From an uncultured bacterium (GTDB lineage: Bacteria; Gemmatimonadota; Gemmatimonadetes; Gemmatimonadales; Gemmatimonadaceae): a stretch of 64,000 nt of DNA. Location of the stretch: NCBI GenBank assembly GCA_963978095.1, contig CAXBQP010000001.1, positions 105,076 through 169,075 of the forward strand. Reading direction: 5' to 3'. Position 1 is the stretch's first letter, and each line of letters begins with the position of its first letter. Made by a program: the position numbers. Of this stretch, positions 3,001 to 54,000 are shown piece by piece.

Positions 3001-6000
3001 CATTGTGATGCTCATGCGCCTTCACGATCGAGCCCTTCTTGAGGAAGACCTGCGCCACCATCGCGCGGTCGCCGGTCAGCACCTTGCGCGACAGCAACGG
3101 CGTGAGTTGCTCCAGACGAACATCGCTCCACGCGTGATGAGTGGCCTCGGCCATACGGTCCTCGAAATCGATGAAGGGTTGTGTTGCGAAAAATACTCAA
3201 CGGCTACCACTGCGCGGCCCCGTGGGACCGCCGCTCGGCCCACCAGGCCGGCGCCCACCACCTCGCCTGCCAGACCCGCCACTGCCGCCGGAACCACCGC
3301 CACTGCGTCCACCACCGGCGCCTGCCCCGGAGCGACCAGATGGGAGACGCCCGCCACCACCGCTCTGTTCACGGCGCTTCGCCTTCTCCGCCGCCCGCGC
3401 CCGCTCCTGCGCCTTCCGGGCACGAATCTCCGCGATACGCTCGGCGAGCGGCACCTCCAGCTTCGCCGCAGGTTTTGCCGTGTAGTCGAAATCCGGTACG
3501 GTCACGCGCGGCAGGCGCTTGCCGATGGCTTTCTCGATGCTCCGCAGATCGTTCTCTTCGTCCGGCGCCACGAACGTGAACGCCTCGCCCGTGAGTTCCG
3601 CACGGGCGGTACGTCCGACGCGATGGATGTAGTCTTCCGGCGCCGCCGGAACGTCGAGATTCACCACATGGCCGAGCGCTTCCACATCGATGCCGCGCGC
3701 GGCGATGTCGGTCGCCACCAGCACCCGATACGTGCCGTCCTTGAACCCGGCGAGCGCTGCGGTGCGAGCACTCTGCGAGCGGTTGCCATGGATGCGCTCG
3801 GCCTTGATGCCGTGCGTGACCAGATACGAGGCGAGCCGATTCGCGCGATGCTTGGTCCGCGTGAAGACCAACGCCTCTTTCATGTCGCCGCGCTTGAGCA
3901 GCTCGAGCAACAGGGCCGACTTCAGCTCGGCCGCCACCGGATAGACCGCCTGCGTGATGCCGACCGCCGGCGCTGACTGGCGTTCCACGTTGATCGTGGC
4001 CGGATTCAGCAACATCTCGCGCGAGAGTTGCGCGATGGCCGGCGGCATGGTGGCACTGAAGAACATCGTCTGCCGCTTGGCGGGAATGTGCCGGAGCACG
4101 CGGCGGATGTCGGGAAGGAAACCCATGTCGAGCATGCGGTCGGCTTCGTCGAGCACCAGGTACTCGAGCTTGTCGAGCTTGGCGTACGGCATTCGGAAAT
4201 GGTCGAGCAGACGCCCCGGCGTCGCGACGAGAATGTCCACGCCACTCCGGAACGCATGCTCCTGCGGCCCCATCCCGACTCCGCCATAGACCGCGGCCGC
4301 CGTGAGCGGAGTGTGCAGCGAAACGTCCTGGATGTTCGCGAGCACCTGCGCCGCGAGTTCTCGCGTCGGGACCAGTACGAGCGCGCGCGTCGCGCCTCGG
4401 GGTCCCGTCATGAGGCGATGGAGGATCGGAAGGGTGAACGCGGCCGTCTTGCCGCTGCCCGTCATGGCGCAGGCGAGCACGTCGCGGCCACCGATCGCCG
4501 GCGGGATGGCATCCTGCTGGATCTGCGTCGGCTTCACATAACCGACTTCCTTGATTCCACGAAGCAAATCGGGGTGCAACGACCACTGGGAGAACGACAA
4601 CGGCAACTCCGGTCCTGGGCGCTGGCTTTCACCGGGAGGGGACCGCGGCGCCGCGCGGAATCCTCCTCCGTGAAGTATAGCCCCGTGCAGTCCTACGGTC
4701 GCGGTGCGCCGCGCGACGGTGGTCCTCCGCGTGGAGCCCCCCCTCCCCGCGTGCGAGACGGCAGAACCTGCTGCATCAGTCCCTCGGATCGTTCGGGAGG
4801 AAACCCTGCCCATCGGATTCCCGCAGGGGAGGGGGCCCATCAGTCGCGCCCAACGTCGACGTTGGGTAGTATTTCGAACGACCGTGTCCCATTCGCCTCT
4901 GCCACCCTCCGTCTCCCCCGATCCGGAAATCTCCGGACGACGCCTCCTCGCCGTGACCGAGGAGGAACTGCAACGGCTCGTGCTCGACGTGCACGACGGT
5001 CCGGTGCAGCACATCTTCGCGTCCCTGAGCCAACTCTCGCTCGTCCGCGCGCGGATCGCCGCCGTGCCCGAAGCGCTCGCGGCGGCCGAGCCGGGACTCG
5101 GGCATGCCGTGCACATGCTGGAACTCGCGCTGCTGGACCTGCGCGCCATGCTCACGGCGTTCCACGCCCCGGAGTTCGCCGACAAAGCTGTCGCGGAGAT
5201 CGCCGAGGACATCGTGGTGCATCACGAGACACTGACGGGCGGCACCATCGAACTCCACATCAGTGACGAGGTGTCGGATCGCCCGATTCCCGTCATCGTC
5301 AAGATCGCCCTGTATCGGATCCTGCAAGAAGCGCTCTCCAACATCCGCCGGCATGCCGGCGTGAACGATGGCGTCGTGCGCCTCACGCAGCAGAACGACC
5401 GGTTGCAGGTGCAGATCACCGATGCCGGACGTGGCTTCGACCCGCCACCGCTCGCCGGACCGGACGCCACCGAACGGCAGACCCACATCGGACTCCGCGG
5501 CATGCGCGAACGTGCCGCCATGGTCAACGGCAGCATCGCCGTGCGCTCACGCCGCGGCGAGGGCACGCAGGTCACCGTCACCCTTCCCCTCGCATGACTG
5601 CCCCCGCACCCATTCGCGTCGTCCTGGCGGACGACCATGCGCTCGTTCTCGAGGGACTCCGCAACCTTCTGGCTGCCGAACCGGGCGTCGAGATCCTCGC
5701 CACCGCCACCGACGGCGCCGAAGCGCTGGACGCCGTGCGCCGCTATGCACCGGACGTCCTGATCCTGGATTACCAGATGACGGTCATGGGGGGCATCGCC
5801 TGCCTGCACCGCATCCGCGAAGAACAACTCCCGGTCCGCGTCCTGATGCTCTCCGCCTTCGGTGACGCCCACGCCATGCGCACGGCGGTCGAGGGAGGTG
5901 CCGACGGCTTCGCCCTCAAGACCGATTCACCGATCGCGACCATCGCCGCCATACGGCAGGTCGCCGCGGGACAGCTGGTCTTCCCGCAAGCGGCCCGTCG

Positions 6001-51000: not shown

Positions 51001-54000
51001 CGGGTTGACTGTGCACGCGGAATCGACCTCGGCGGATGACGACGGCGTTGTGCACGCTCTGAGCCGATGGTTCGCGGAGCACGCCGTTCCCTACTGGAGA
51101 TGACGATGGGTGACACCGTACGTGAGCAGCAGATGGCGCCCGGAGCGGTTCGGATGCGCCGCCTGCGTCGGACGAGCGCGCTCCGCGCCTTGGTGCGCGA
51201 GACGCCACTCGCCGTTGCCGACTTCATTCATCCGCTGTTCATCACCGCCGGCTCCGCCTTCGAGAAACCCATCGAGACGATGCCTGGCCACTCGCAGCGG
51301 TCGGTGGATCGTCTGGATGCCGAAATCGACGAACTGGTGGCGCTGGGCATCCCGTCGGTGTTGCTGTTCGGAATCCCGGCCGCAAAGGACGCGCGGGGGA
51401 CGTCGGCCTACGATCCGGACGGTCCGGTCCCTCGGGCCACCCGCGCCATCAAGGCCCGCGCGCCGGAGATGATCGTCATCGCCGACGTGTGCCTCTGTGA
51501 ATACACGAGTCATGGGCACTGCGGCGTCTTGGTGGACGAATCGGGCGATGTACGCAACGACGAGACGCTCGAACTGCTCGGACGCGCATCGGTGGCGTAT
51601 GCGGATGCGGGGGCCGACGTGATCGCCCCCAGTGCGATGATGGACTTTCAAGTGGCGGCCATCCGTCGGGCCCTCGATGCCGCCGGACACGCACACATTC
51701 CGATCCTGAGTTACGCCGCCAAGTATTCCTCGGCGTTCTACGGACCTTTCCGTGCGGCCGCCGAGAGCACACCGAGCTTCGGCGACCGTCGTGCGTACCA
51801 GATGGATCCCGCCAACACGCGCGAAGCGATGCGCGAAGTGGAACTTGACGTTGCCGAAGGCGCGGACATGCTCATGGTGAAACCCGCCGGCGCGTATCTG
51901 GACATCATCCGCCAGGTGCGTGACCGGTGGGGACATCCCTTGGTCGCCTATCAAGTGAGTGGCGAATACGCGATGCTCAAAGCCGCCGCGCGCCTCGGAT
52001 GGATCGACGAACGGCGCGCCGCACTGGAATCGCTGGTCGCGATCCGACGCGCGGGTGCGGATGCGATCATCACCTACTATGCAAAAGAGGCAGCCGCATG
52101 GCTGGCGGATCAGTGAGCGATTCGGTGGAGGCCCACACGCGCACGAGCGCGTCCCTCTTCGCGGCGGCCCAGCGGGTGATTCCCGGCGGCGTGAACAGTC
52201 CGGTCCGTGCATTTCGCAGCGTTGGCGGGACGCCGCGCTTCATCGCCGAGGCGGCGGGCGCGTGGCTGATCGATGAAGATGGCAATCACTTCGTGGACTA
52301 CGTGCTGAGTTGGGGACCGATGATCCTGGGGCACGCGCACCCGGATGTGATCGCCGCCATCAGCCATCAGGCTGCGAAGGGGACCTCCTACGGCGCGCCG
52401 ACGGCCCTCGAGACCACGCTGGCGGAGATGGTGATCGCGATGGTGCCGTCCGTGGAGATGGTGCGCTTCGTTTCGAGCGGGACGGAAGCGACGATGAGCG
52501 CCGTGCGCCTGGCGCGGGCCTTCACGGGGCGCAGCAAGGTGCTCAAGTTCGCCGGCTGCTACCACGGTCATGCCGACGCGTTCCTGGTGCAAGCGGGTTC
52601 CGGCGTGGCAACGCTCGGACTGCCCGACAGCCCGGGTGTGACCGCCGGGACCGTGGCGGACACGCTGACCTGCGCCTACAACGACCTCGCCGCTGCCACG
52701 ACGATCGCCGAGGCACATGCCGACGCGCTCGCGGCCATCATCGTGGAGCCCGTCGTGGGGAACATGGGCTTGGTCCAGCCGCTCCCGGGCTACCTCGAGG
52801 GGTTACGTGCGCTGGCCACGCGACTCGGCGCGGTCCTGATCTTCGACGAAGTGATGACCGGCTTCCGTGTCGCGGCGGGCGGGGCGCAAGCGCATTACGG
52901 CATCACGCCGGACCTCACGTGCTTGGGCAAGGTGATCGGTGGCGGGCTGCCGGTGGCCGCGTACGGGGGACGGCGAGACATCATGGCGGCAGTCGCCCCA
53001 TCGGGGAAGATGTACCAGGCGGGAACGCTGTCGGGCAATCCGATTGCGATGGCGGCGGGGATCGCGACACTCCGCGAGCTGCAGGCGCCGAACCGCTATG
53101 CGTCGCTGACGGCGACCGCCGAGCAGGTGGTCGACGTCGTGCGCACGGCCGGCGCGCGGCATGGTGTGCCCGTGACGGCTGGGAACGTGGGGAGCATGTG
53201 GGGCTTCTTCCTGTGTGCCGGTCCCGTGACCGACTACGAGAGCGCGAAGCACGCGGACACGACGAAGTACGCCACCCTCTTCCACACGCTCCTCGAACAC
53301 GGGGTGTACGTCGCACCGTCACAGTTCGAGGCGGCGTTCGTGAGCACCTGCCACGGCGCGCGGGAGTTGTCAGTGACCGCCGCGGCCTTCGATGCGGCGT
53401 TCGCGGCGATCAGCTGACCGCGCGGCGTGACGTCGATCAGTTGACGATCGGCCGCGCCAGGCTCTTCACGAGGCGGTACATGAACTCGTTGGCGTCGTAG
53501 AACGCGCGCTGCGGGATGTGTTCGTTCATCCCGTGCGCGTTGGAGTCGCCGTAGAACTGGCCACTGACGCCGAAGGTCGGAATGCCCACGTTGCGCAGAT
53601 AGGAGCCATCGGTCGCGCCGGTGCTCATGGTGGGAATCACGCCGACGCCGGGCCACATCTCCTGCGTGATGCGATCGAGTTCACGCATCAGGGCCGGAGA
53701 CGCCACGGTCGCGGGGCTGTTGCGCGCCGCGTTGCCGATCGTGACCACGACCTTGGGATCGCCGATCACTTTGGTGATCGTCGCGATGATGTCCTTGGTC
53801 TCGGCATCGGGCAGGATCCGGCAGTTCACATTCGCCTTGGCGCGCTGCGGCAGCGCATTCTTCGCGTGGCCGCCTTCGATCGTAGTGGCGACGCAGGTCG
53901 AACGCATGGTCGAGTTGTATCGCGGATCGGCGGCCAAGGCCGCGGCGGCCGCGACATCCGTCTCGTTCTCGGCGATCGCCGTCATGGCCCAGCCGATCGT

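What a model noticed while it worked through the whole genome (the two positions that open the first line are those of the whole stretch)
4953..53417. Photosynthesis cluster and the genome's only haem-pathway genes form one 48-kb block that sister species lost in a singl [...]
The photosynthesis gene cluster (bch, puf, puh, acsF, crt, ppsR; g00105-g00139) is directly continued by hemA, hemE, hemF, haem oxygenase, a bacteriophytochrome, hemC, hemD, hemB and hemL (g00140-g00148). hemB and hemE occur nowhere else in the genome, so bacteriochlorophyll and haem supply hang on one block. Only 2 of 30 species of genus Fen-1231 have reaction-centre genes. In the closest non-phototrophic species the flanking genes g00102 and g00149/g00150 lie 2-4 kb apart instead of 50 kb, and one of them keeps the last 151 codons of hemL next to the g00149 orthologue: a deletion scar. 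So phototrophy was lost there, not gained here, and the same event removed hemB/hemE, turning a phototrop [...]
Evidence so far: Gene order from genes.tsv/pfam.tsv. Photo_RC (PF00124) by six-frame search: G000 and G480 only, 2 of 30 genomes of the genus. G204 (100% complete, 10 contigs): g00102 orthologue C11:478509-479891 (92% id), hemL residues 289-439 only at C11:481705-482157 (83% id), g00149 orthologue C11:482197-483654 (91%), g00150 orthologue C11:483802-486303 (91%); in G000 the same genes span C1:108272-162613. G468: g00102 and g00149 orthologues 1.7 kb apart on C70. The two-component pair g00103/g00104 at the left edge is found in G480 but not in G204 or G468. G480 (phototroph) keeps hemB-hemL-g00149-g00150 in the G000 order on its C5. 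ALAD (PF00490) and URO-D (PF01208): one hit each in G000 (both inside the [...]
(Added by a program. Inside this text positions count along the whole contig: contig position 105,076 is position 1 of the stretch shown here. "Call 12" and the like, gene names such as g00115 and contig names such as C1 are that model's own, and its searches are not shown. The text may have been shortened before it was handed on; [...] marks where a part breaks off. The agent that wrote the report below was given it as the finding of a first reader that could run no searches.)

Follow-up and report, generated by a model that had tools for sequence, protein, structure and literature searches.

The report
Photosynthesis–haem gene block, repeatedly deleted
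A 47-kb block holding all photosynthesis genes and this bacterium's only early haem and chlorophyll-precursor genes is ancestral in its group and has been cut out whole several times, very recently, leaving relatives that still respire with haem proteins but encode no known way of making such pigments.

Summary
Window 6243-53417 is a Gemmatimonadota-type photosynthesis gene cluster (PGC) running without a break into hemA-E-F, haem oxygenase, a bacteriophytochrome and hemC-D-B-L. These are the only hemB, C, D, E and F copies found in G000.

The layout itself is known: hemEFG lies beside the PGC in Gemmatimonas phototrophica, and 16 Gemmatimonadota MAG loci show PGC-hemA-E-F.

Loss, not gain, is shown. 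Genome G025 joins the last 160 nt of puhE to the last 151 codons of hemL. That is a 46.6-kb deletion between two copies of a 10-nt repeat.

New here:
- The deletion is very recent. The stubs still look selected (dN/dS about 0.12).
- Near-identical contigs (99.8-99.9%) in four lake metagenomes run on past both breakpoints.
- Two other metagenome contigs carry a second, different junction.
- G010 lost the block separately, and G021 keeps a bchP stub.

20 of 30 species of the genus lack hemB and hemE, yet 30 of 30 keep COX1, so living without tetrapyrrole synthesis is common here. Ferrochelatase was found in G000 only among the four close species. Whether the deletion itself created the haem dependence is therefore open.

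The parts
3197..4740 (-).
   Evidence: Pfam DEAD and Helicase_C. DNA homology with G025, G010 and G028 runs to window 4734-4740.
4704..6217 (+). Histidine kinase plus NarL/LuxR-type response regulator pair. Shared with G028 only. It is not part of the unit deleted in G025.
   Evidence: Pfam HATPase_c, Response_reg and GerE. 84% and 91% identity in G028 L011. In G025, in the two second-junction contigs (L144, L145) and in the lake contigs that run on into puhE, another gene ('X') abuts puhE instead.
6243..7070 (-). puhE, the left end of the PGC. It holds the left breakpoints: first junction after window 6401, second junction after about 6261.
   Evidence: Pfam DUF3623. NCBIfam PuhE at 107 bits, below its cut-off. 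G025 stub L005 7549-7708.
7067..9976 (-). bchD and bchI (magnesium chelatase subunits).
   Evidence: Pfam VWA_2, AAA_lid_2 and Mg_chelatase.
10043..16368 (+). crtF-like O-methyltransferase, bchC, bchX, bchY, bchZ.
   Evidence: Pfam Methyltransf_2, ADH_N, Fer4_NifH and Oxidored_nitro. 87-92% identity in G028.
16336..17541 (-). bchO (alpha/beta hydrolase).
   Evidence: NCBIfam TIGR03056 at 202 bits, over its cut-off.
17832..21373 (+). pufB, (pufA), pufL, pufM, pufC: light-harvesting and reaction-centre genes.
   Evidence: Pfam LHC, Photo_RC twice, CytoC_RC.
21503..23383 (-). puhC, puhB, and puhA split into puhA2 (22635-23246) and puhA1 (23180-23383, 204 nt).
   Evidence: NCBIfam PuhC, PuhB and puhA in two parts. 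The same split occurs in G028. It matches puhA1/puhA2 of G. phototrophica (passages of PMC8849296).
23414..25934 (-). lhaA and acsF.
   Evidence: Pfam PUCC and Rubrerythrin.
26274..35095 (-). bchM, bchL, bchH, bchB, bchN, bchF.
   Evidence: Pfam Mg-por_mtran_C; Fer4_NifH, CobN-Mg_chel, Oxidored_nitro, PCP_red and BCHF.
35275..37556 (+). B12-binding AerR/PpaA-like gene and ppsR.
   Evidence: Pfam B12-binding. NCBIfam PpsR-CrtJ at 466 bits, over its cut-off.
37570..42797 (+). bchG, a PucC-like gene, an FrhB-type (BciB-like) gene, bchP, tspO.
   Evidence: Pfam UbiA, PUCC, FrhB_FdhB and TspO_MBR. NCBIfam BchP-ChlP at 511 bits.
42802..46264 (+). hemA (glutamyl-tRNA reductase), hemE, hemF.
   Evidence: Pfam GlutR_N, URO-D and Coprogen_oxidas. 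NCBIfam hemA over its cut-off. The same order sits behind bchP in 16 Gemmatimonadota loci.
46266..49141 (.). Haem oxygenase (+, 46266-46928) and a bacteriophytochrome (-, 46940-49141). The phytochrome has PAS2-GAF-PHY and a PAS output, with no kinase domain.
   Evidence: Pfam Heme_oxygenase, PAS_2, GAF, PHY and PAS_4. NCBIfam BphP at 384 bits, below its cut-off of 1040.
49312..53417 (+). hemC, hemD, hemB, hemL, the right end of the block. hemL holds the right breakpoints: first junction before window 52968, second junction before about 52818.
   Evidence: Pfam Porphobil_deam, HEM4, ALAD and Aminotran_3. NCBIfam hemL at 592 bits, over its cut-off. G025 stub L005 7706-8158.
6402..52967 (.). The interval missing from G025 (first junction), 46,566 nt in G000 coordinates. 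The second junction (L144, L145) misses about 6262-52817.
   Evidence: blastn; junction read; second junction.
53437..57538 (.).
   Evidence: Pfam. Orthologues in G025, G010 and G028.

Best explanation
**What it is.** The block is the Gemmatimonadota form of the purple-bacterial photosynthesis gene cluster. It is joined to the C5 trunk pathway of tetrapyrrole synthesis (hemA, L, B, C, D, E, F) and to a haem-oxygenase/bacteriophytochrome pair.

**How it works in G000.** These are the genome's only hemB, C, D, E and F copies. The block therefore makes protoporphyrin IX and turns it into bacteriochlorophyll a. HemJ (contig C28) and a ferrochelatase (C17) lie elsewhere.

**History.** The block is ancestral to a clade of at least nine species and is being lost repeatedly, as a whole.
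- In G025 a deletion between two copies of a 10-nt repeat, one in puhE and one in hemL, removed 46.6 kb (shown). It is so recent that near-identical lake populations still carry sequence running on past both breakpoints (shown for 0.7-13 kb on each side; the rest is inferred).
- A second strain lineage of the same species has another junction (shown).
- G010 lost the block through different breakpoints (shown).
- G021 lost the PGC and hemA but kept hemE-F-C-D-B (shown).

**Why the loss is tolerated (inferred).** These bacteria can live on outside haem. Two thirds of the species in the genus encode no hemB or hemE yet all keep a haem-copper oxidase.
For: **Anatomy and copy number:** (domains; single copies).

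**Scar in G025**
- puhE codons 224-274 abut hemL codons 288-438.
- The 10 nt at L005 7711-7720 belong both to the contigs that run on into puhE and to those that run on into hemL.
- The hemL copy of the repeat is read directly in L145.

**Recency**
- hemL stub dN/dS is 0.117 against G000. The same region of the intact G028 gene gives 0.176.
- G025-specific changes in the stub: 32 synonymous, 15 non-synonymous.
- dS between G025 and G010 is 0.37-0.39, with about equal end branches.
- A stub neutral since that split should carry about 59 non-synonymous changes; P(15 or fewer) is 7e-12.

**Undeleted form in lakes.** In 4 of 4 runs laid, from 4 studies:
- Left contigs fit L005 5500-7720 with 4-5 differences, then run on for 673, 2,058 and 6,082 nt in X4, X5 and X7 (about 255 nt in X17).
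- Right contigs fit from 7711 and run on leftwards for 10,998, 2,718 and 13,106 nt in X4, X5 and X7; X17's listed piece starts at 7735.
- The loose ends read as puhE and hemL going on.

**Second junction.** L144 and L145 are 98-98.6% identical to G025 in the flanks. They keep 20 nt of puhE and about 150 nt more of hemL.

**Tree.** (G028,(G000,(G010,G025))), with SH-aLRT 100, 84 and 100. An AU test rejects G000+G028 as a clade, p 0.035.

**No sign of recent transfer.** G000-G028 nucleotide identity is 79.8% inside the block (34,256 nt) and 77.8% in the flanks (10,741 nt).

**G021.** bchP codons 335-397 survive in two frames in front of tspO, with hemA missing.

**Life without tetrapyrrole genes**
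- ALAD and URO-D are absent from the same 20 of 30 genomes.
- hemC, GluTR and hemF: 0 of 5 in G025, G010, G011, G002 and G012.
- Ferrochelatase: 10 of 30.
- COX1: 30 of 30, without stops.
Against: - The first junction is seen only in the G025 assembly and, by word share alone, in run X1, which may be its own source. I could not lay reads on X1.
- Contigs drop rare variants, so allele frequencies are unknown.
- Of the undeleted form I saw only loose ends of 30 nt and contig lengths, not its sequence. That it holds the whole 46 kb is inferred.
- The hem genes are clustered, so one missed contig in a MAG removes them all at once. The agreement of ALAD and URO-D across genomes is therefore not independent evidence. 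6 of the 20 genomes without them are under 90% complete (14 are 90% or more).
- The AU test group was named after I had seen the tree, and the branch joining G000 to G010+G025 has only 84% support.
- No haem uptake system was identified.
- G023 (unpublished) is among the 10 hem-positive genomes and in the tree.
Confidence: 0.8

Rival explanations
1. One reading: one deletion in the common ancestor of the non-phototrophic sister species removed the block and, by that act, turned a haem-making phototroph into a haem auxotroph.
For: G010 and G025 are sisters (SH-aLRT 100). Both lack the block at the same site. Neither has any of hemA, B, C, E, F or H. G000, with the block plus a ferrochelatase, has a full pathway.
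Against: - G025's stubs show no neutral decay, although dS is about 0.19 since its split from G010.
- The breakpoints differ, and G010 has no stubs.
- Near-identical contigs run on past both breakpoints.
- Ferrochelatase was not found in G028, G025 or G010. G000's copy lies in a 2.8-kb segment directly behind tRNA-Lys. That site is empty in G028 and holds a hydrolase gene in G025 and G010.
Confidence: 0.08
2. Gain, not loss: G000 and G028 (or their ancestor) took up the PGC-hem block by horizontal transfer into an empty helicase-M20 site like the one in G021.
For: In G021 the M20 gene and the helicase are 72 bp apart. The PGC of Gemmatimonadota as a whole is held to come from Proteobacteria (abstracts listed; section 10 of PMC9426454).
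Against: - Stubs of puhE and hemL sit at the junction in G025 and in L144/L145.
- G021 itself keeps a bchP stub beside tspO and hemE.
- The block's hemE has its nearest relatives (65-72%) in Gemmatimonadota.
- The block and its flanks are equally diverged between G000 and G028.
- The window has no tRNA, no integrase domain among the ORFs scanned and no composition step.
Confidence: 0.03
3. Artefact: the junction in G025 and the missing hem genes in 20 genomes come from mis-assembly or from incomplete MAG binning.
For: Most genomes are MAGs. The hem genes are clustered, so they can drop out together. The first junction was found only in the assembly and in a run that may be its source. No listed contig in the four other runs bridges it.
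Against: - A 10-nt overlap is too short for an assembler's join (my judgement).
- Logan's own contigs of X1 hold all sampled words of the stretch.
- A second junction occurs in two separate metagenome records.
- G025 is 100% complete in 10 contigs, with the junction inside a 643-kb contig.
- G010's junction lies inside a 115-kb contig.
- 15 of the 22 genomes that are at least 90% complete and at most 5% contaminated lack ALAD.
- Relics fit decay: G016 keeps only the ferrochelatase of the other hem cluster.
Confidence: 0.06

Closest known systems
Photosynthesis gene cluster of Gemmatimonas phototrophica AP64 with its adjacent hemEFG operon (PMC11406998 and PMC8849296; passages read).
   Same: A purple-bacterial-type PGC in a Gemmatimonadota genome. 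The hem operon lies 'next to the PGC' and is repressed together with it. The H subunit is split into puhA1 (204 bp) and puhA2. ppsR and a B12-binding regulator are present.
   Different: Here the neighbour is the whole trunk pathway (hemA, E, F, C, D, B, L) plus haem oxygenase and BphP, and these are the only hemB, C, D, E and F copies found. The passages I read say nothing on copy number or on loss. I did not read the AP64 genome itself.
MAG locus L083 (record title: Gemmatimonadetes bacterium K_Offshore_40m_mx_046) and 15 further phototrophic Gemmatimonadota loci.
   Same: L083 has bchP-tspO-hemA-hemE-hemF-(amine-oxidase gene)-BphP-hemC-hemD-hemB-hemL, nearly the G000 order. The other 15 show bchP-(tspO)-hemA-hemE-hemF.
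   Different: 45-75% protein identity. Most have an amine-oxidase-type gene after hemF that G000 lacks. 13 non-phototrophic Gemmatimonadales loci have hemB-hemL-(oxidase)-hemC-hemE-hemF instead.
PGCs of aerobic phototrophic Rhodobacterales with a built-in ALA synthase copy, and 'regressive' loss of phototrophy (PMC5553392; passages read).
   Same: A tetrapyrrole-precursor gene sits under PGC control. Heterotrophs are derived from phototrophs by loss of the PGC.
   Different: There the PGC copy (hemT form) is a duplicate, and a housekeeping hemA stays outside. Losing the PGC does not touch haem synthesis. No deletion stubs are described in the passages I read.
Haem auxotrophy in free-living bacteria, such as the acI Actinobacteria (bioRxiv 10.1101/2021.01.11.426183; PMC11139205; passages read).
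   Same: Aerobic, free-living lineages that lack haem synthesis genes but keep haem proteins. The losses are many and independent, in sub-clades.
   Different: Neither text names Gemmatimonadota as a haem auxotroph in what I read. 'Gemmatimonad' occurs 0 times in the first paper's main text and once, in another context, in the second. Supplementary tables were not read and may list them. No link to phototrophy is made there.

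Membership tests
Gemmatimonadota-type photosynthesis gene cluster | Type-2 reaction-centre genes pufL, pufM, pufC and puhA. | tested here: met
   Photo_RC at 334 and 335 bits, CytoC_RC at 343 bits, PRCH and PRC. NCBIfam puhA at 253 bits, over its cut-off.
Gemmatimonadota-type photosynthesis gene cluster | A full set of bacteriochlorophyll a genes (bchB, C, D, F, G, H, I, L, M, N, O, P, X, Y, Z and acsF). | tested here: met
   All are found by Pfam or NCBIfam. acsF is called from its Rubrerythrin domain and its position only.
Gemmatimonadota-type photosynthesis gene cluster | H subunit split into puhA1 (204 bp) and puhA2. | tested here: met
   Two overlapping frames, 23180-23383 (204 nt) and 22638-23246. 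The same split is in G028. Described in PMC8849296.
Gemmatimonadota-type photosynthesis gene cluster | hemE and hemF directly behind bchP. | tested here: met
   Window 41122-46264. The same holds in 16 named Gemmatimonadota loci and in PMC11406998.
Complete C5 haem pathway in G000 | hemA, L, B, C, D, E and F, a protoporphyrinogen oxidase and a ferrochelatase. | tested here: met
   The seven trunk genes lie in the block. HemJ family PF03653 is on C28. hemH is on C17 at 341 bits, over its cut-off.
Haem (tetrapyrrole) auxotroph: G025, G010, G011, G002, G012 | No genes for the trunk pathway or for iron insertion. | tested here: met
   ALAD, URO-D and ferrochelatase absent. hemC, GluTR and hemF 0 of 5. 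Sirohaem-decarboxylase family PF17805 absent from G025. The genomes are 95-100% complete.
Haem (tetrapyrrole) auxotroph: G025, G010, G011, G002, G012 | Haem-dependent enzymes are kept. | tested here: met
   COX1 is present in 30 of 30 genomes, full length and without stops.
Haem (tetrapyrrole) auxotroph: G025, G010, G011, G002, G012 | A haem uptake system. | tested here: inconclusive
   A TonB-dependent receptor scores 217-221 bits on TIGR01785, whose cut-off is 317. No haem genes lie beside it. It is present in 14 of 20 genomes without the hem genes and 3 of 10 with them. Fisher p is 0.056 and independent pairs are not significant.
Haem (tetrapyrrole) auxotroph: G025, G010, G011, G002, G012 | Growth needs added haem. 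| not testable with these tools
   There are no cultures; this needs a growth experiment.
Mobile genomic island | A tRNA or integrase at an edge, and odd base composition. | tested here: not met
   No tRNA in the window. No integrase or transposase domain among the 115 ORFs scanned. GC is 60-71% throughout, with no step at the edges.
Bacteriophytochrome / haem oxygenase pair | A PAS2-GAF-PHY photosensory core with an adjacent haem oxygenase. | tested here: met
   Pfam PAS_2, GAF, PHY and Heme_oxygenase.
Bacteriophytochrome / haem oxygenase pair | A histidine-kinase output domain. | tested here: not met
   The C-terminus is a PAS domain with no HisKA or HATPase. NCBIfam BphP scores 384 bits against a cut-off of 1040.

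The most novel reading that the evidence does not exclude
In this clade, and in some other phototrophic Gemmatimonadaceae, the trunk hem genes attached to the PGC would serve bacteriochlorophyll only. The phototrophs themselves would have no ferrochelatase and would live on scavenged haem.

**Evidence that fits**
- PF00762 was not found in G028 (84% complete), G074 (91%), G081 (98%) or G159 (95%), all of which have reaction-centre genes and ALAD.
- None of those four has the sirohaem route marker either.
- G000's ferrochelatase sits in a variable site beside a tRNA trio, where the other three close species have none.

**What would follow**
- Without an iron branch, hem genes left behind after a loss of bch genes would pile up phototoxic protoporphyrin.
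- That would explain why three separate deletions (two junctions in the G025 species, one in G010) each remove the PGC and the trunk pathway together, almost exactly from puhE to hemL.
- It would also explain why G021, which has a ferrochelatase, could keep its hem genes.
Probability: 0.3. Interest if true: 0.8.

Novelty: new variant of a known kind. Interest (0 to 1): 0.7.

Why it matters
[quoted passage not shown] Here the loss is caught in the act. It has base-level junctions, a 10-nt repeat that gives the mechanism, and deleted genomes alongside near-identical undeleted contigs in public lake data. Phototrophy in these bacteria is a strain-level, repeatedly discarded trait. Counts of 'phototrophic species' from one representative genome each (2 of 30 here) are therefore too low.

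**Haem dependence.** The genes needed for every tetrapyrrole go with the PGC, and two thirds of the genus and 24 of the 109 high-quality family genomes sampled lack ALAD. Dependence on outside haem thus seems common in an abundant soil and lake family. That bears on why so few of them are cultured, and hemin supplementation is a direct test.

**In print?** I found neither point in print for this phylum.

Tried and rejected
- **Candidate haem receptor.** The TonB-hemin-like receptor of G025, G010 and G011 has no haem genes beside it. Its link with missing hem genes is not significant: 14 of 20 against 3 of 10, Fisher p 0.056, and independent pairs not significant. It remains a lead only.
- **SCO1 genes** beside the PGC edge in G028 and G021 are 21% identical, so they do not mark a shared left border.
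- **'Type 1 hem cluster came in with the PGC from Proteobacteria'** is rejected. Its hemE is closest to Gemmatimonadota, and 13 non-phototrophic Gemmatimonadales loci carry the same type.
- **'G000's ferrochelatase is foreign to the family'** is rejected. 9 other family genomes have a copy 59-77% identical, and three of five loci looked at have a GluTR-like neighbour. None of those five loci has a tRNA beside it. Whether G000 gained it or the other three lost it stays open.
- **The kinase/regulator pair** (window 4704-6217) is not part of the deleted unit. In the G025 species another gene abuts puhE, also in the contigs that run on into puhE.
- **My first puhE-stub dN/dS** was off by one codon. 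It was redone.
- **My first GC3-based gene calls** missed genes and were replaced by family scans.
- **In the four runs laid**, no listed contig bridges the G025 junction. Contigs drop rare variants, so this says nothing about whether the deleted form is absent there.
- **Not attempted:** structure and complex prediction, and the large protein searches. No claim needed them.

Full report
**1. What is in the window.**
Family scans of the open frames give an unbroken run of photosynthesis genes from puhE (6243-7070, minus strand) to tspO (to 42797). The run holds:
- bchD, bchI, a crtF-like methyltransferase, bchC-X-Y-Z and bchO;
- pufB, pufL, pufM, pufC, puhC and puhB;
- puhA in two overlapping frames, lhaA and acsF;
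- bchM-L-H-B-N-F, a B12-binding AerR-like gene and ppsR;
- bchG, a PucC-like gene, an FrhB-type gene and bchP.

It runs straight on into hemA, hemE, hemF, a haem oxygenase, a bacteriophytochrome on the other strand, and hemC, hemD, hemB, hemL (42802-53417). The flanks are a DEAD-box helicase and a kinase/regulator pair on the left, and an M20 peptidase and a large spermine-synthase-domain gene on the right. There is no tRNA, no integrase domain and no composition step. ALAD and URO-D hit G000 once each.

**2. The layout is the known Gemmatimonadota one.**
A scan of species genomes with the block's hemE gives as nearest relatives (65-72%) contigs titled Gemmatimonas, Gemmatimonadaceae or Gemmatimonadales. 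Ignavibacteria and Bacteroidota follow at 50-55%. I looked at 30 Gemmatimonadota loci.
- 16 show ...ppsR-bchG-...-bchP-(tspO)-hemA-hemE-hemF.
- One of these, L083, has nearly the whole G000 order through hemL.
- 13 have no bch genes and read hemB-hemL-(oxidase)-hemC-hemE-hemF.
- One (L080, 1.9 kb) shows only hemA and hemE.

[quoted passage not shown] PMC8849296 describes the split puhA1 (204 bp) and puhA2 that I see at 23180-23383 and 22638-23246. So the hem genes are native to the phylum, and the linkage is not peculiar to this genome. What is unusual is that the whole trunk pathway is here and is present only once.

**3. Distribution in the genus.**
- Photo_RC: 2 of 30 genomes, G000 and G028.
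- ALAD and URO-D: the same 10 of 30 (G000, G001, G005, G015, G019, G021, G022, G023, G026, G028). Among genomes at least 90% complete and at most 5% contaminated the count is 7 of 22. G023 is unpublished.
- Ferrochelatase: 10 of 30.
- COX1: 30 of 30, full length.
- G025, G010, G011, G002 and G012 (95-100% complete) also have 0 of 5 for hemC, GluTR and hemF.

Two unlike hem clusters occur in the genus.
- The block's type is in G000, G028 and G021.
- A hemH-hemA-hemC-hemD-hemB-hemL-regulator-hemE-hemN-hemY cluster is in G026. The shared hem genes lie in the same order in G005, G001, G022 and G015, and partly in G019.
- The two types are only 30-59% identical.

G021 is a mixture. It keeps hemH and hemA of the second type and hemE-F-C-D-B of the first. 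G016 keeps the second-type ferrochelatase alone.

**4. The family sample.**
In a sample of 151 family genomes, ALAD is found in 115, and in 85 of the 109 high-quality ones. Reaction-centre genes are found in 16. G036, G062 and G063 in that sample are unpublished.

**5. The scar.**
In G025 (100% complete, 10 contigs) the DNA between the helicase and the M20 gene reads as follows:
- a gene 'X', shared with G010 and G028 but not G000;
- the last 160 nt of puhE (L005 7549-7708, matching window 6242-6401);
- directly after it, hemL from codon 288 to its stop (L005 7712 onward, matching window 52968 onward).

In G000 coordinates 46,566 nt are missing. Both stubs keep open frames. G010 has X, then about 30 nt, then the hemL-M20 spacer, with no stubs. 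G021 has M20 and the helicase 72 bp apart on one contig. On another contig, bchP codons 335-397 survive in two frames in front of tspO, followed by hemE with hemA missing.

**6. Tree.**
RpoB+RpoC for 28 of the 30 genomes give (G028,(G000,(G010,G025))) with SH-aLRT 100, 84 and 100. G008 and G029 had no match, and several rows are partial. The sister clade is (G021,((G003,G024),(G011,G027))). An AU test rejects G000+G028 as a clade (p 0.035), though I named that group after seeing the tree. G000 and G028 are as diverged inside the block (79.8% over 34,256 nt) as in the flanks (77.8% over 10,741 nt). With the stubs, this makes the block ancestral to the nine-species clade and lost at least four times.

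**7. How recent the G025 deletion is.**
- The hemL stub has dN/dS 0.117 against G000. The same region of the intact G028 gene gives 0.176.
- Changes private to G025 are 32 synonymous and 15 non-synonymous. G000 has 17 and 14, and G028 has 17 and 13.
- The puhE stub gives dN 0.10 and dS 0.81.
- dS between G025 and G010 is 0.37-0.39 in M20 and the helicase, with about equal end branches.
- Had the deletion predated their split, about 59 non-synonymous changes would be expected in the stub. P(15 or fewer) is 7e-12.

So G025's deletion is younger than the split, and G010's loss is a separate event.

**8. Public runs.**
The stretch around the junction is held by 20 runs of 6 studies, all lake or freshwater metagenomes. 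Run X1, which may be the assembly's source, holds all sampled words; the others hold at most 0.93. I laid four runs from four studies.
- In each, contigs fit L005 5500-7720 (X17: 7008-7720) with 4-5 differences. X4, X5 and X7 also show one 12-nt insertion. The contigs then run on unlike the reference for 673, 2,058 and 6,082 nt in X4, X5 and X7, and for about 255 nt in X17.
- In X4, X5 and X7, other contigs of the same depth fit from 7711 rightwards and run on to the left for 10,998, 2,718 and 13,106 nt. X17's listed piece begins at 7735.
- No listed piece bridges the junction.
- Read by eye against G000, the loose end left of 7711 is hemL going on upstream, with the GGGLPVAAYGG stretch. The loose end right of 7720 is puhE going on.

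Near-identical populations therefore still carry the undeleted form, at least for these lengths. The 10 nt at 7711-7720 (AGGCCGTCGC) belong to both sides. The hemL copy is read directly in L145. I infer a deletion between two copies of a 10-nt repeat.

**9. A second junction.**
An exact 30-nt search of metagenome contigs returned two records, L144 and L145.
- They are 98-98.6% identical to G025 in the flanks.
- They keep only 20 nt of puhE and about 150 nt more of hemL. In G000 coordinates about 6262-52817 is missing.
- Neither junction can be derived from the other.

The same species has therefore lost the block at least twice.

**10. Ferrochelatase.**
G000's hemH (341 bits, over its cut-off) and a weak GluTR-like gene lie in 2.8 kb directly behind tRNA-Pro, tRNA-Arg and tRNA-Lys on C17. 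The same tRNA trio is followed by 208 nt in G028 and by a hydrolase gene in G025 and G010. Copies 59-77% identical occur in 9 other family genomes, 6 of them phototrophs. PF00762 is not found in G028 or in the phototrophs G074, G081 and G159. The sirohaem-route marker PF17805 is not found in them either. This leaves open whether the phototrophic ancestor made haem at all. It is the basis of the novel reading.

**11. Literature.**
- Loss of the PGC in non-phototrophic Gemmatimonadota is suggested but not shown in PMC9426454 (section 10) and in PMC7844134 (passage).
- Haem auxotrophy in free-living bacteria is established (bioRxiv 10.1101/2021.01.11.426183; PMC11139205). Gemmatimonadota are not named as auxotrophs in the passages I read. 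Supplementary tables were not read.
- In Rhodobacterales the PGC carries only a duplicate ALA synthase (PMC5553392).
- 'Fen-1231' occurs in no paper searched.

**12. Verdict.**
The linkage is a known layout. The new points are:
- base-level evidence for repeated, very recent, whole-block deletions;
- their coupling to the loss of every known route to tetrapyrroles, in a genus where that state is already common;
- the open question of phototrophs without a ferrochelatase.

Noticed in passing
L011 (G028:C30) 13936-15912: The other phototroph, G028, has RuBisCO large and small subunit genes directly behind its kinase/regulator pair at the left edge of the region. It also has an extra PRK-family gene at 244 bits, which G000 and G025 lack. 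G000 has only a 28% RuBisCO-like gene. G028 is a possible photoautotroph. rbcLS in 19 Gemmatimonadota genomes is reported in PMC9426454.
   Followed up: partly
L048 (G000:C17) 8745-11634: Ferrochelatase and a divergent GluTR-like gene (100 bits, below the hemA cut-off) sit directly behind tRNA-Pro, tRNA-Arg and tRNA-Lys(CTT). At the same site G028 has 208 nt, and G025 and G010 have an alpha/beta hydrolase gene.
   Followed up: partly
G074, G081, G159 (family genomes; no loci fetched): Three phototrophic family genomes, 91-98% complete, have reaction-centre genes and ALAD but no PF00762 ferrochelatase and no PF17805.
   Followed up: partly
L041 (G026:C27) 7563-18515; L049 (G021:C6) 2124-4413: A second, non-orthologous haem operon (hemH-A-C-D-B-L, regulator, hemE, hemN, hemY) is in G026, and its shared genes lie in the same order in four more species (partly in G019). 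It is 30-59% identical to the block's genes. G021 combines hemH and hemA of this type with hemE-F-C-D-B of the block's type.
   Followed up: partly
family sample of 151 genomes: 24 of the 109 high-quality family genomes sampled have no ALAD. They include genomes 100% complete in 7-20 contigs (G044, G056, G079). In genus g7 a phototroph (G157) sits beside a 100%-complete genome without ALAD, ferrochelatase or reaction-centre genes (G035). The same kind of loss may have happened there.
   Followed up: no
window 46266-49141: A haem oxygenase and a bacteriophytochrome with a PAS output and no kinase domain are inserted between hemF and hemC. L083 and L095 have a BphP in the same neighbourhood. From memory, not from a call: this resembles the PpsR-linked BphP of Rhodopseudomonas palustris.
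   Followed up: no
G025:C10:385547-385987: G025 keeps an intact HemJ-family gene (PF03653, 170 bits, open frame of 186 aa) although every other tetrapyrrole gene looked for is missing.
   Followed up: no
L142 (G025:C14) 8326-10635: A TonB-dependent receptor gives a full-length but sub-threshold match to the TonB-hemin family. It is present in 17 of 30 genomes of the genus, including G028, G025 and G010 but not G000.
   Followed up: yes
window 39866-41122: An FrhB/FdhB-type gene lies between the PucC-like gene and bchP. It is conserved in G028 (85%) and in 6 of the Gemmatimonadota PGC loci. It is probably the BciB-type 8-vinyl reductase; that name comes from memory and was not tested.
   Followed up: no
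window 25937-26491 (-): A 185-aa frame between bchM and acsF has no Pfam or NCBIfam match, but it is 84% identical in G028.
   Followed up: no
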